From positions 334,366,001-334,430,000 of the forward strand of contig OZ024743.1 in assembly GCA_964016885.1 (NCBI GenBank): DNA of 64,000 nt, read 5' to 3'. Below, in pieces: positions 7,013-63,630 of this stretch (position 1 is the stretch's first letter; every line of letters starts with the position of its first letter). A program made the position numbers and the translations under genes. The notes under the pieces were generated by a model, which saw only the letters and a list, made by a program, of their open reading frames with translations, was not told the DNA's origin and made no database searches. The DNA comes from Eledone cirrhosa (Eukaryota).

Positions 7013-8395
7013 ATGATATTAAATAAATGGAAACTATATTTATAAAACCATATTTATTTTATTATATATATTTCAAGGGTACCAAGACAACATTGGTACG
7101 TTTTCATTAGATAAAATACAAAGTTTGTTTTATAAATAGAGACGTACCCATGAAAATCATACCTTCTCGATTGGAAATTCACTGGATAGTGGAAATATAT
7201 TAGGGATTATTCAAACTTATGTGTGAGTATGCATATGAATATGTAAATAATTGAAAAACAACCGTTTATTTAAACGACTATGGAGAAAGAGAGAGAGAAG
7301 ATATAAGGGGAGAAAGATAAAAAATAGTACGAGAGAGAGAAGAAATAAACAAGAGAGGATGAATAAAACTCATATAACGTTAATTTGGGGGAAATATATT
7401 CTAAGTATATATCTTAATAGTACGTGTATTTACGATTATTAGTTGTTTGAAATTCGTTTATAATATAATATTTTCTGTTATAAGTAGATAAATAAAAAAA
7501 AAAAATAAATAAATAAATAAAAAAATAGATAAATAAATAAATAGATGGGTATATCATGTTATTGTTTTAATGAGTTATGAGGGATATTGGTTTTGTATTT
7601 AATGTAAATAAATATTATGTTAAATTAAATTAAATTAACTGAGTTAAGAATATTTATATTTATATATTTTAAAATGGGAAGATACGGAAAAACTCCAGTT
7701 TAATTTATTTATTCGTTAGTATGAGACTATTTAGTCAAAATAAGTATAAATCTTGAAAGATATATTTAGCCAGAATCAGTTAGTGGTTATAAATCTAATA
7801 AAAAATACTGAAAAAATATTAAAAATTTGAGAAAGTTTTTTTTAAAATAATTTATAAGAGATAAGTAATTTTTAAAGAAATAAAAATTAAAGAAAAAATA
7901 AAGAATTAAAAATTATTAAGATTAAAATTACAATTAAAATTAAAATTAAAATTAAGAAAAGAATTAGAATTATATATGTATATATTTTATGAAACTTTAA
8001 GAAGTGGAATTATAGCAAATGTTATAGATATTATGATTTAGAGATATCAATATATTAAAACCATGTGGATAAGATTGTTATGGAAATAAGTAGAAATATT
8101 ATAAGTATAATTATAATTTATATATCGTTCTGAATGTTGAATTCAGGCGATCTCTACAAGAATTGGGTACGTCTCTATTTATAAAACAAACTTTGTATTT
8201 TATCTGATGAAAGCGTACCAATGTTGTCTTTGTACCCTTGAAATATATATAATAAAATAAATATGGTTTTATAAATATAGTTTCCATTTATTTAATATCA
8301 TTGAATATTTACTCCAGTAATTTGTTGAGTGCTCTAAATCAGTTATAAACATTTATATTTGTCGGACTTCCAACAAATTAAATACCCCTTCTACC
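7013..8395. mobile_element. Fold-back Penelope-type insertion with 138-bp inverted arms (7013-7150 / 8164-8301) and ~95-bp tail
   Basis: Arms are near-perfect reverse complements, each carries a hammerhead motif, and the element is flanked by (TA)n. Confidence 0.75.
8196..8259 (+). ncRNA. Type I hammerhead ribozyme motif
   Basis: UAUUUUAU-CUGAUGA-AAGCGUACCAA..UUUGUACCCUU-GAAA-UAUAUA-UA-AUAAAAUA: 8-bp stem I and palindromic stem III. Confidence 0.8.
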
Positions 8396-8999
8396 TATAT
8401 GTATATATATATATGTCATCGAGAAAATTGACGAAAGACCATACCATTCCATTCCATTCCAACTTATATATTGAAAAAGGTACTATTAGTATAACAATTG
8501 TATGATATCTGATCGATAGCAGCCCGTCTGAGGAAGGGGCTCCGCGAGGTGGGGTGGCTGTTGCAGCGTGTGCCGCTAGCCATTGTCCACCGAAATGCCT
8601 TTGCCATTTTGTCCATGGGACGCAGCCGAAACAACACTCTGACTTAGGTGTAGAGTTTGTCACCCTCTCCCCTTCCGCCTTTCTCTCTACCTTTGTCTAG
8701 TAGTCCTTACTCTTCCCCTCCCTTTTCTCTCATTTACGCCATTTATAGTCCTTCCAATACTGTTTTATTTTTCTGTATGTTTAACCAAATAAAAATAAAC
8801 TTTCATCTATAATCCGAATATTTTAGGTTTCTAAACTTACTTGCTTCTTTAAAAAAAAATTCATTATTTCTATTAAATATAAAATTAAATATATAAATAA
8901 GTAAAATGATATAAAATATAATTTTGAGGGGCAATGCCAAAAAGAATGGTAATTTAAGTGATATATCTAAACAAATGACCAGCATCTACATAATAATTT

Positions 9000-9395
9000 A
9001 AGGGTCATTGGAGTAACATTACTTGATAGAGTGCGTAGATCGGAGATGAGAGAGTCACTCAAGGTAGTAACGCTACTTCTCCGAATTGAGAGATCACAGC
9101 TCCGATAATATGTGGTTAGAATGTCTCAGGAAAGAATTGATGGACAGATTTTAAGGGCAAAACCAACAGGCAGGAGACCCAGGGATAGATCCTGAGAAAG
9201 ATGGTTTGATAACATCTATGAGCTTGGCTGGTCATGCTTGGGTATCCAGCCGGAGCAATTGGAGACGGCTGCTTCTGACAGAACCAGCTGGAAGGAGTGT
9301 TTGAGGGCTCTTCCCCCATGACCCTTGCAGGAATGAGTGGGGGAAGAAGAAGAAGAAGAAGAAGAAGAAGAAGAAGAAGAAGAAGAAGAAGAAGA
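9000..9395 (+). mobile_element. RTE-type LINE 3' fragment with (GAA)n tail
   Basis: Degenerate GVTLLDRVR..LLRIERSQLR..AKPTGRRP coding remnant ending in (GAA)n. Homologous to 48020, 54750, 58165 and 10310. Confidence 0.8.
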
Positions 9396-10309
9396 ATATT
9401 AAAATAGTGAATGCCTTTGTCGTTCAATTATGAAAGAGGGACCCAGAGTTAGTTGGATATGGAGGAAACTCGTTCGGCCGTCACTTTCCCTTAACTTCTA
9501 TATATACTTTATTCTTTTTAACATTCAACATTTGTTTGTCTGTATTTCACTGATGAGCAACAAATACTTTATACAAGGGTAAGTGAACAGAGGATATAAC
9601 TAAAATAATAAAATAAAGAAATACAGGTGCACACTCAGGGAAATAATGCATTGAGAAAAGGGGACGATAAAAACGAAATTGATAGGTACTAAACAACTAA
9701 AAGTAATCTAGATAAACAAATAATAACAACTAATTAATTAGGTTTGAAAAATAATTATCTCATTACTAGAATACGTAAAGGAACGGAAAAAAATATATAT
9801 TGTCACACGCATGCGTAGAGATGCTTTCAAAGAGTTTGCAACAGAAAGGTTCTATTCTGACAGCATCTCACCTCTGAGTTGCACCGAGAATCTTCAGCGC
9901 ATGCGTGTTTCTCACCATGCTGAGAGAGGCGCTGACCATAAGCCTTACGCGAGAGGATCTGTAAGGAAAGGAAGATTTATTTTGTAACCAAGCAAGGACC
10001 TATTCCTCGATATCTTAGAGTAAATCCTATACTTTATATTCTTTAAATCATTTTATGTTTTATAATGCATCTATTTTAAAACATGTGAATGCCTCTCTCT
10101 GCAAGTTATATAAAATTTAAAATAATGCCATGATATTATGATAAAGCTTTTACTAATGTGAAATTTAAAATGTGTGTATCCAACATAAATAATCATAATA
10201 ATAGTCGATGATTATCAATAATAATAGTTGAGGAAATCGGGTAACGTATCTATGGAAACGGCAAAGGAACGCGTACAGAGATGTCTTCTTTAGTCACGTA
10301 TAACTCTTG

Positions 10310-10475
10310 ACCAGCCAAGCTCATGGATGTTATCAAACCATCTTGCTCAGGGTCTACCCATGGATCTCCTGCCTGTTGGTTTTGCCCTTAAAATCTGTCC
10401 ATCAATTTTTTCCCCGAGACATTCTAACCACATAGTACCGGAGCTGTGATCTCTCAATTCAGAGAAGTAGTGGTA
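10310..10475 (-). mobile_element. RTE-type LINE fragment
   Basis: Reverse complement of part of 9070-9235 (KIDGQILRAKPTGRR). Confidence 0.75.
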
Positions 10476-62069: not shown

Positions 62070-62390
62070 GGCGGTGAATTGGTGGAGTTGTTAGAACGTC
62101 GGATAGAATGCTTTGCGGTATTCGTTTCACTCTCTGGTCTCTAAGTTCAAACCCCACCGAGGTTAACTTTGCCTCGTCGATAACAAGAACGAGTCTAGTA
62201 CTGGGGTCAATTCTACCACTATATCTCTTTCTCACTTCCTCCTTCTCCCTCATTATCCTTCTCTGTAAGAACTCTGCTGTATTCAAACCTGGAAAAGAGA
62301 TGGAGTCAGCCAGGTTTTAAAATGTCTAAGAAACGCAGTGTGTTAATATGGCGCTCCTACAACTCCTTCATGTGGTATGGGACCACTGTC
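62070..62390 (+). mobile_element. SINE, long composite form
   Basis: ggcggtgaattgg head, gttcaaacccc, gaggttaactttgcc core and tctgctgtattcaaacctgg module. Confidence 0.78.
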
Positions 62391-62789
62391 TACCTACATT
62401 TGTGGAGGTAGGAGAGTCAATTTTCCTGCGAGTTGGATTGGCTGATCCAGTGCGTTTCTCTCTCCATCCTCGCCGGAACCAGGAGGTTGACTAACCCTTA
62501 AACAGTGAGTAGTAAACACACATACAGACAAAAACACACACACATACATACAGACAAACACAGACAAACACAGACAAACAGACACACATACAGACAAAAA
62601 CACACACACACACTCACTCATACTCTTAGAGTAAACAGCTATAAAATTAAATTACGCGCCGAGGTTCAAATGCAGTTTATGTAGGAGGAATATAATGTTT
62701 GCAAACATTTATAGTCTAAATTTCTTATAAAAAAAAATAAAAAAATGTCGAATGCTCTGTAGTGTGATCAGCAATGAGATTAACAGTCT

Positions 62790-63070
62790 AAAGTATGTCT
62801 CGCACACAGAGGCTCATCAGGCCAGGGCTTATCCCAGTTTCCGTGGCATGAAGCGACTGACAAATATAAGACCCCTCCTGGACAGGATACCAGTCTATGA
62901 CAGAATTAAACCCCCAGCTATTGCTGGTACTCATTTTCAGCTGAGTATAATGGACCAATGTGAAATGAAGTGTTTGGCTCGAGACTACGACACACAACCT
63001 AGTTCAGGAATTGAACGCACGATATTATGATGGTTAAGCCCAACACAATTACCACTAGGCCACGCGCCTC
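62790..63070 (-). mobile_element. tRNA-derived SINE, family 2-related
   Basis: ctggtactcattttcagctgagt..gtgaaatgaagtg..accactaggccacgcgcct in reverse. Confidence 0.65.
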
Positions 63071-63519
63071 ATCGGGTAATGCGACTACTTTCCTTAATTC
63101 GATAAATATACGGTTCGAATAATCAATGGAAATATGCGATTGATTGGATTCATGTAAGAAGAGGGGGAAGAAGTGGACAGAATGACACAAGGAGAGCAAA
63201 AGAAACATCTTTCTTGGACTTTCTCGGTTTCGTTCCTCTCTTTAACCCATCTTTCTTCTTCCCTTCCCCTTCATCCTTTGCTATATATTTTATATCTATT
63301 TCCCGGCTCCGTGAAGGTGTGCGGCTCTGTGGTTAGGGAATTTGGCTCAATTGGTATATGAATCTGATCAAAGTTTGTTCTCATATTTTGGTGTCCCACC
63401 TTCTTCACTTTGTGTTTACTCTTCAGGAAAATATATTAACTTTTCGCACCATGGAGTACTTTGTGACTGCCTCAAACAATTCAATTGGTACCTAATATTA
63501 TATATATATTATATTTAAT

Positions 63520-63630
63520 ATAGTGATGGCTTCTACAGGACTAGAACTGTTTCATTCGTACGAAGTACACTCCACTAATGTATTGAGTACCTTTTAACTG
63601 TGGGCACCATCTTTTAACACGGGATCTACA
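63520..63630. mobile_element. Miniature inverted Penelope-type insertion (family of 49375-49510)
   Basis: Inverted half-hammerhead arm ggcttctacaggactagaactgtttcattcg joined to tail tacactccactaatgtattgagtacc. Confidence 0.6.

What the first reader, a model, noticed from the sequence alone, without database searches (positions are those of the whole stretch)
7013..63630. Stereotyped insertion geometry: fold-back elements in (TA)n with one tailed and one untailed arm
Seen: at least seven families insert as two oppositely oriented 3' ends pointing outward. One arm carries an extra ~30-100-bp tail, and the other stops at a fixed internal point. Tails: 8302-8395, 12595-12672, 17045-17115, 17627-17659, 26155-26230, 26900-26965, 30417-30494, 36655-36740, 38163-38238, 59259-59356, 63565-63630. 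The untailed end falls at essentially the same position in independent copies (taaaataaag at 21265 and 59780; agggaacaaag at 25933 and 36332; cgaatargaaaa at 11289 and 39447), while the central junction varies. Established: Penelope elements can have inverted pseudo-LTRs and a one-sided tail. Inference: each end of a cut (TA)n target primes reverse transcription at its own defined RNA site and the two cDNAs are joined in the middle, so the smallest products are ORF-less ribozyme palindromes of 110-520 bp.
Basis: partly seen in the sequence, partly recalled or inferred. Interest (0 to 1): 0.8.

Follow-up and report, generated by a model that had tools for sequence, protein, structure and literature searches.

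The report
Two-ended priming by Penelope-like retroelements
Penelope-like jumping genes in this genome sit in TA repeats as mirror-image pairs that nearly always have one tailed and one untailed end, likely because both ends of the cut DNA start copying at two neighbouring RNA sites, each followed by a similar small predicted stem.

Summary
All 11 tails and their inverted, untailed partners are in the window: 13 insertions of 8 families. The four families with a traced ORF are Penelope-like elements (PLEs): A, D and G carry Hydra-clade motifs, F Neptune-type motifs.

In genome samples not chosen for tails, 124 of 133 head-to-head structures were tailed/untailed, 0 untailed/untailed and 2 tailed/tailed-like; 7 had a broken or unresolved arm. 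About a quarter of family A insertions have one arm only.

One-sided tails, inverted pLTRs and two RT start sites are published (PMC8557442, PMC3846280, PMC11167929). This scan noted similar palindromes in another genome.

Not found in my searches: (1) the near-strict one-tailed/one-untailed coupling; (2) arms sharing source alleles; (3) a conserved RCTC…GAGY stem 3-9 nt downstream of both sites, predicted and then confirmed for family G; (4) arms piling up at a probable RNA 5' end, so the tiny palindromes look like run-off products.

Best model: twin priming (0.7). Main rival: fold-back plus central deletion. Corrections: junctions have hotspots, variable TSDs exist, and small palindromes can lack a complete ribozyme.

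The parts
7013..8395 (.). Family E insertion: untailed arm 7013-7150 (-), partner arm 8164-8301 (+), 94-bp tail 8302-8395, hammerhead core at 8204
   Evidence: interior 7151-8163 not tested for family membership
11289..12672 (.). Family B insertion: long untailed arm (-) 11289-12573 with an internal tail (12494-12573) and the second stem motif; short tailed arm (+) 12571-12672
17045..25848 (.). Family D (Hydra-type PLE): tailed inverted arm from 17045, broken RT/EN ORF 22234-24218 (+), untailed end 25848; interrupted by F and A insertions in its TA-rich arm
17627..21252 (.). Family F (Neptune-type PLE): 33-bp tail 17627-17659, arm 17660-18097 (-), 5'-truncated ORF with GIY-YIG 19837-20910 (-), untailed inverted arm 20811-21252 (+)
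   Evidence: (PF01541, E 9.5e-7)
21265..21428 (.). Family A mini-insertion: 130-bp untailed arm (-) with hammerhead, joined over 2 shared bases to the last 36 bp of the tail (+); arms share no other sequence; (CT)n stutter follows
25930..26230 (.). Family C palindrome, untailed left, 76-bp tail 26155-26230 ending at (TAC)n
26900..30339 (.). Family D: tail 26900-26965, inverted arm to 27358, 5'-truncated ORF about 27360-28469 (+), untailed end 30339
30417..30613 (.). Family G 197-bp palindrome: 78-bp tail left; both arms end near the probable RNA 5' end (about 30555); only the 3' half of the hammerhead
36325..36740 (.). Family C palindrome with hammerhead core at about 36521, 86-bp tail 36655-36740
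38163..39448 (.). Family B: tail 38163-38238, inverted arm to about 38460, untailed end 39447 followed by (TC)n; hammerhead core at about 39324
59259..59780 (.). Family A 522-bp palindrome: 98-bp tail 59259-59356, two outward-pointing hammerheads (cores at 59457 - and 59680 +), untailed end 59780
60249..60338 (.). Family D micro-insertion: about 20-bp untailed arm (-) joined to the tail (+)
63512..63630 (.). Family H micro-insertion: untailed arm (-) with hammerhead 3' half, joined to a tail-only arm 63565-63630 ending at (CA)n

Best explanation
These are insertions of Hydra- and Neptune-type Penelope-like retroelements whose two mirror-image arms end at two fixed sites, one tailed and one untailed, and they likely form by twin priming: both 3' ends of a staggered cut in a TA-rich target are predicted to start reverse transcription, one at each site. 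SHOWN: geometry, fixed ends, near-strict tailed/untailed pairing, shared alleles between arms, junction microhomology or filler, occasional 10-19-nt TSDs, and the duplicated motif downstream of both sites. INFERRED: (1) the element RNA starts inside the upstream pLTR (G: initiator-like A at -61 with a TATA-like box 29 nt upstream; A: -223) and carries both sites near its 5' end; (2) two RT subunits, probably a dimer, each bind one copy of a RCUC/GAGY stem 3-9 nt 3' of a site; (3) each target end pairs with 1-3 AU bases and is extended, sometimes with stutter; (4) both cDNAs run towards the RNA 5' end or stop early, and are joined through short inverted homology or templated filler; (5) a transcript from the nearest promoter gives only 90-520-bp ORF-less palindromes, while ORF-carrying arms need a read-through transcript from a tandem copy.
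For: Pairing in samples not selected for tails: A 41 of 49, D 23 of 23 independent plus 1 duplicate, F 17 of 17, G 43 of 44; 0 untailed/untailed; incidental E 8 of 8 and B 3 of 3 by eye. The coordinate-only test gave 28 mixed of 31 pairs, and the 3 exceptions resolved into internal tails or two separate mixed pairs. The untailed arm is longer in 27 of 56 and the tailed arm lies inside the tail in 9 of 56. Single-armed copies of both types exist. Initiation stutter: at least 2 CT units at 34 of 96 A tail ends; the terminal tail 11-mer is reiterated about 5 times in L106; (TC)n sits at B untailed ends. Microhomology of at least 2 nt in 21 of 34 filler-free junctions against a null of 5.5. Arms agree at variant sites (-153: 51 of 51; -207: 34 of 35; -188: 44 of 46), divergence 0.76% against 1.63% permuted. 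The stem motif is at 10 of 11 sites at offset 3-9 (11 of 11 at offset 3-16), shuffle P 0.002-0.006 each; ACTC pairs with GAGT in 6 and GCTC with GAGC in 5; it was predicted for G in note and found. In vitro precedent: PMC11167929.
Against: No empty allele, RNA read or biochemistry was obtained; no RNA run was listed. 18 of 56 junctions are symmetric, often at short palindromes, as fold-back also predicts. Asymmetric central deletion of a fold-back palindrome could give short tailed arms beside untailed arms that stop at the hotspot. Shared alleles could come from conversion between arms or from two RNAs of one active locus; 2 of 46 pairs differ at -188. Short tailed arms (9) are no commoner than short untailed arms (8), so there is no sign of one RT blocking the other on a single RNA. 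In vitro, no strand difference in start site was seen and coupling was not reported. The families are related, so motif hits are not independent; MFE folds recover the stem in only some sites. F lacks this motif (it has a different short repeated word) and shows no 5' hotspot. TSDs were readable in only 9 of 115 elements.
Confidence: 0.7

Rival explanations
1. Single priming with fold-back: one cDNA is primed at the tail end, snaps back on a short palindrome, copies itself, and is cut or ligated at the fixed internal point by the endonuclease. Later central deletions make the arms unequal. This is close to the self-priming and EN-resolution ideas in PMC3846280 and PMC8557442.
For: It explains strict pairing and identical alleles directly. 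18 of 56 junctions are symmetric (10 of 43 outside the hotspot against a null of 1.6), often at short palindromes. Short fold-back stubs exist (L032, L104, L017, L222, L226).
Against: It needs secondary deletions, up to about 2.7 kb, in 27 of 56 young copies where the untailed arm is longer. Untailed-only copies exist (L033, L047, L094, L102). Stutter occurs at untailed ends in B. The same motif follows both sites. Two RT start sites were shown in vitro.
Confidence: 0.2
2. Pairs are two independent single-arm insertions that landed in the same TA array.
For: 15 of 66 family A insertions are single-armed. TA arrays collect many insertions. A few junctions hold TA-rich filler (L052, L095).
Against: Orientation is almost always head-to-head, pairing is 124 mixed to 2 same-type, arms share alleles, and most junctions are direct.
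Confidence: 0.03
3. The palindromes are MITE-like or fold-back DNA transposons that move as units.
For: Short inverted-repeat elements in thousands of copies at TA sites.
Against: Ends are unequal, junctions differ among copies, the same junction recurs on different haplotypes (L001 and L009), arms continue into RT + endonuclease ORFs, and TSDs vary from 10 to 19 nt.
Confidence: 0.02
4. Assembly or long-read fold-back artefacts.
For: Palindromes beside long microsatellites are error-prone. L117 (two converging tailed arms) may be one. No read spanning a window locus was obtained.
Against: Arms differ by 0.76% on average and only one carries the tail. Illumina RAD reads of three samples from another study show head-to-head joints of families A and G, including tail-only arms joined at the hotspot.
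Confidence: 0.02

Closest known systems
Hydra-clade PLEs (Craig et al. 2021, PMC8557442; passages and section 11 read)
   Same: C-terminal EN, RWK and DKT motifs, CxCX5C linker, no CCHH, hammerheads, (TA)n targets. Their Fig. 2 legend describes an inverted 5'-truncated copy and a tail often at one end only.
   Different: Tails here are 66-98 bp against the 30-40 bp given. The passages I read ascribe the tail to EN resolution and give no pairing counts, no duplicated stem and no run-off palindromes. Placement here is by motif, not by tree.
Poseidon PLE of Anolis in vitro (Frangieh et al. 2024, PMC11167929; parts 1-2 of 4 read, supplements not seen)
   Same: Two adjacent internal RT start sites bound the tail; both strands are cut and extended; a dimer is predicted; RNA 3' of the start sites is needed.
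   Different: Different clade. Coupling of the two sites within one insertion, central joining and a motif repeated after each site are not reported in the parts read.
Adineta vaga Penelope elements (Arkhipova et al. 2013, PMC3846280; passages and Discussion read)
   Same: Head-to-head inverted pLTRs, optional tail on one of them, junction palindromes, 8-10-bp TSDs.
   Different: Explained there by self-priming on an antisense template; few copies and no pairing statistics.
L1 twin priming (recalled; not read here)
   Same: A second target end primes a second cDNA, and the two join through microhomology to give an inversion.
   Different: In L1 the second primer anneals at variable internal places and the arms do not overlap. 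Here both sites are fixed and the arms usually copy the same RNA stretch.
Non-LTR retrozymes (bioRxiv 10.64898/2026.07.22.740005; part 1 of 5 read)
   Same: ORF-less, hammerhead-related derivatives of PLE pLTRs.
   Different: Retrozymes are direct tandem repeats with a full hammerhead per unit. These are inverted pairs that appear to be made anew at each insertion and often lack the full core.

Membership tests
EN+ Penelope-like elements | One ORF with RT and C-terminal GIY-YIG-type endonuclease | tested here: met
   F: PF01541 E 9.5e-7. A, D, G: YRDD/YRDE and EN motifs by eye; Pfam gave no RT or GIY-YIG hit for the three D pieces. No ORF traced for B, C, E, H.
EN+ Penelope-like elements | Partial-tandem pLTRs, inverted copy and one-sided tail | tested here: met
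   L061; internal tails in A, B, D, F, G
EN+ Penelope-like elements | Hammerhead motif in the pLTR | tested here: met
   Core plus stem I by pattern scan in A, B, C, D; cores in E and H; G has a variant core upstream of its hotspot; none found in F. Rfam listed no hammerhead among 150 of 216 rows shown. Cleavage not tested.
Hydra clade (A, D, G) | RWK and DKT motifs, CxCX5C linker, CxxC/CxH around E and N, no CCHH | tested here: met
   against the definition; G has RWR in place of RWK
Hydra clade (A, D, G) | Phylogenetic placement of the RT | not tested
   no reference Hydra sequences were held
Neptune clade (F) | CX2-5CxxC linker and CCHH in a C-terminal EN | tested here: met
   Nematis shares these features and is not excluded; RT core is missing from the window copy
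MITE / fold-back DNA transposon | Equal terminal inverted repeats and a fixed-length TSD | tested here: not met
   unequal ends in 124 of 133; TSD 10-19 nt
Non-LTR retrozyme | Direct tandem units each with a complete type I hammerhead | tested here: not met
   inverted pairs; G arms lack the 5' core
Twin priming (mechanism) | Two cDNAs primed from the two target ends in one event | tested here: inconclusive
   favoured; needs de novo or in vitro products

The most novel reading that the evidence does not exclude
PLE integration is an obligately asymmetric two-ended reaction. A protein dimer loads on one RNA at two copies of a conserved stem, places one active site at each fixed start site and extends both target ends, with telomerase-like stutter at initiation. 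The default product is then a tiny palindrome copied from the RNA's 5' leader, thousands per family, and mirror-image pLTRs, the tail and the need for tandem donors all follow from this one design.
Probability: 0.4. Interest if true: 0.78.

Novelty: new variant of a known kind. Interest (0 to 1): 0.6.

Why it matters
How PLEs, the closest relatives of telomerase RT, make inverted pLTRs and a one-sided tail is named as an open question in PMC8557442 and PMC11167929. A near-strict pairing rule across two clades and a short motif repeated behind each start site make it testable with point mutants in the existing in vitro assay. It also means that thousands of small hairpins in such genomes are retrotransposition products that annotators could misfile as MITEs or miRNA precursors, and it may guide two-ended RT insertion tools.

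Tried and rejected
Rfam scan: the 150 of 216 rows shown were simple-repeat matches below gathering score, nearly all to miRNA models, and uninformative. A 116-bp arm query found nothing because common words are skipped. One search was selected for tails and for the window's junction, so L001-L030 were left out of pairing and junction counts; they were kept for allele, TSD and stutter counts. A genome-wide count of each pair type was not obtained, so pairing rests on samples from contig C1. The family C pattern gave only 16 matches and one pair. Idea that RT adds (TA)n at the junctions: shared flank motifs in 17 of 108 against a null mean of 5.2 (max 13), and the two clean TSDs show no added TA; not supported. 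Idea that hammerhead cleavage sets the 5' ends: only L093 ends at the predicted site (-56); rejected as a general rule. Idea that one RT blocks the other at the untailed site: no excess of short tailed arms. Three-part junctions (L017, L222, L226) fit two cDNAs but could be later duplications; L194a was dropped as a probable deletion. Apparent untailed/untailed pairs (L194, L212) resolved into separate or nested mixed pairs. No RNA holder was listed, which says nothing on expression. RAD reads did not cover the window's unique flank, so no empty allele was seen. Literature searches; searches found no paper stating the coupling or the duplicated stem. Subscription papers and all supplements were unseen and may bear on novelty.
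Full report
1. Observation. Self-alignment of the window and inspection of each end confirm the 11 tails and their inverted, untailed partners. There are 13 insertions of 8 families, which I label A-H; T means a tailed end and U an untailed end, with positions counted from U. 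Hammerhead cores in the arms point outward, so the arrangement is head-to-head. The window is C4:334366001-334430000 of a 3.0-Gb genome. The host was not determined; its SINEs and TA/CA richness look octopus-like from recall only.

2. Identity. Locus L061 is a full-length family A copy: inverted T arm, pLTR, 98-bp tail, broken ORF with RT and a C-terminal endonuclease, 3' UTR, pLTR ending at U. The tail is the sequence just downstream of the upstream pLTR, before the start codon. A, D and G carry the Hydra-clade motifs defined in PMC8557442 section 11. F has a Pfam GIY-YIG hit and Neptune/Nematis-type zinc motifs. B, C, E and H are assigned only by hammerhead, tail and shared motif. No tree was built.

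3. Pairing. Short arm patterns that exclude the tail were searched, and the first 100 matches along contig C1 were used as the sample. For A, nearly all 100 were examined. For D and F, the head-to-head pairs and the first 30 loci were examined. For G, the first 30 loci plus 40 further stretches were examined. Results for head-to-head structures: A 41 of 49 T/U, one T/T-like (L048), seven with a broken or unresolved arm; D 23 of 23 independent, one duplicate dropped; F 17 of 17, with L212 resolving into nested T/U pairs; G 43 of 44, one T/T inside a duplicated structure, two variant U ends called by eye. The total is 124 of 133 T/U and 0 U/U. Independent choice of site would give about half same-type pairs. 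A coordinate-only test with exact U-end (1432 genome matches) and T-end (1551) patterns gave 28 mixed of 31 head-to-head pairs within 6 kb in 188 Mb; two exceptions were internal tails and one was two separate T/U elements. E and B pairs found incidentally, window copies included, were 8 of 8 and 3 of 3 by eye. Against full stereotypy, 15 of 66 family A insertions have one arm, T or U.

4. Junctions. Of 56 family A pairs not chosen by junction, U reaches further 5' in 27, T in 11, and 18 are within 10 nt; 9 T arms lie wholly in the tail and share nothing with the U arm. 22 of 56 have filler, often templated. 21 of the other 34 have at least 2 nt of microhomology (permutation mean 5.5, max 15). 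Ends pile up: 29 of 112 A ends at -227 to -219, and 56 of 86 G ends at -65 to -56, at an initiator-like TCAGT with a TATA-like box 29 nt upstream. I infer these are RNA 5' ends; an internal Penelope promoter is known (PMC2377424, passages). D ends are spread over -150 to -75 and F shows no hotspot.

5. Source and ends. Arms of one element differ by 0.76% against 1.63% for shuffled partners, and agree at variant sites in 51 of 51, 34 of 35 and 44 of 46 cases. This points to one source locus per event, but it cannot separate one RNA, two RNAs of one locus, fold-back or conversion. Informative TSDs of 10-19 nt were found in 9 of 115 elements (null mean 0.43, max 3); only L103 and L133 are long and clean. 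34 of 96 A tail ends carry two or more CT units where the template has one, L106 repeats the last tail 11-mer about five times, and B shows (TC)n at U ends. I read these as slippage at RT initiation at both kinds of site.

6. Motif. Downstream of U and of T the same motif recurs: RCTC at offset 3-9 and its complement GAGY 10-65 nt later. It holds for both sites in A, B, D and G and for U in E and H; C has it at offset 16. ACTC always goes with GAGT (6) and GCTC with GAGC (5). I wrote the prediction for G's T site in the notebook before reading the loci, and it held. Shuffle probability is 0.002-0.006 per site, but the families are related, and MFE folds recover the stem in only some sites. F has a different repeated word after AATAT at both sites, which is weaker evidence. 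T-downstream sequence was not obtained for C, E or H.

7. Artefact check. Illumina RAD reads from three samples of another study with the same species label show head-to-head joints: for G, 30485 to 30552 in 32, 112 and 79 reads from 2-3 starts; for A, 59316 to 59562 in 5 reads from 4 starts. These come from family copies anywhere in the genome; the window loci themselves were not spanned.

8. Mechanism. Best model (0.7): a staggered cut gives two 3' ends, each primes at one of two motif-marked RNA sites, the cDNAs run to the RNA 5' end or stop, and they join centrally. The rival (0.2) is single priming, fold-back, resolution at U and later central deletion. It explains pairing, shared alleles and symmetric junctions, but needs many large deletions and does not explain U-only copies, U-end stutter or the doubled motif. 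The dimer-on-one-RNA step is the least supported.

9. Literature. PMC11167929 (parts 1-2 of 4) shows two RT start sites bounding the tail and extension of both strands. PMC8557442 (passages and section 11) describes inverted copies, one-sided 30-40-bp tails and TA targets, and calls for study of how these form. PMC3846280 (passages and Discussion) proposes self-priming. PMC13282606 (passages) has no occurrence of 'palindrom'. Searches found no statement of the coupling or the doubled stem; subscription papers and supplements were not seen. One earlier scan note (e1-7858806) describes similar palindromic PLE stumps in another genome; I did not check it.

10. Verdict. Real; known elements with a geometry known in outline; new quantitative rule and candidate cis-element. 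New variant of a known kind, interest 0.6.

Noticed in passing
window 1-4412: 28-bp CT-rich tandem array of about 160 copies whose unit resembles the pyrimidine-rich part of the local SINE-like repeat
   Followed up: no
window 39563-39913: Tailed family H arm facing a hammerhead-bearing arm (core at 39819) of an apparently different family; not a same-family pair
   Followed up: partly
window 49224-49513: Family H tailed arm with a broken inverted partner across a TA array
   Followed up: partly
window 33297-33672 and 36003-36122: Old, diverged palindromes (68% and 78% arm identity); the second is related to family H
   Followed up: no
window 5933-6047, 6727-6867, 13348-13886, 15252-15388, 47467-47576: Older hammerhead-bearing or related repeat fragments, probably decayed PLE arms
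   Followed up: no
window 24394-24563: Extra short family D pLTR piece between the ORF's 3' region and the long UTR in the 17045-25848 element
   Followed up: no
L311 (family G pLTR, about -104 to -20): Hammerhead-like fold with a variant core (U3-A8 in place of C3-G8, by eye); the probable RNA start lies inside stem II, so the 5' copy could not self-cleave
   Followed up: partly
L031, L068, L084, L088, L213 flanks: Short target words are repeated several times with variable TA runs next to insertions; possible reiterative copying, not significant in a shuffle test
   Followed up: partly
L117:1449-1812: Two identical tailed D arms converging on a TA array; possible local duplication or assembly artefact
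   Followed up: no
L133 and L137: Same insertion and flanks 1.2 Mb apart on C1, probably a segmental duplication; L136 and L139 likewise
   Followed up: no
window 14529-15240: Candidate TA-free insertion bounded by hammerhead-like cores at 14536 (+) and about 15211 (-), between duplicated blocks 13932-14210 and 14629-14908
   Followed up: no
window 36762-37358 and 42769-43227: ORF fragments that resemble LINE proteins by eye; no Pfam hit for the first
   Followed up: no
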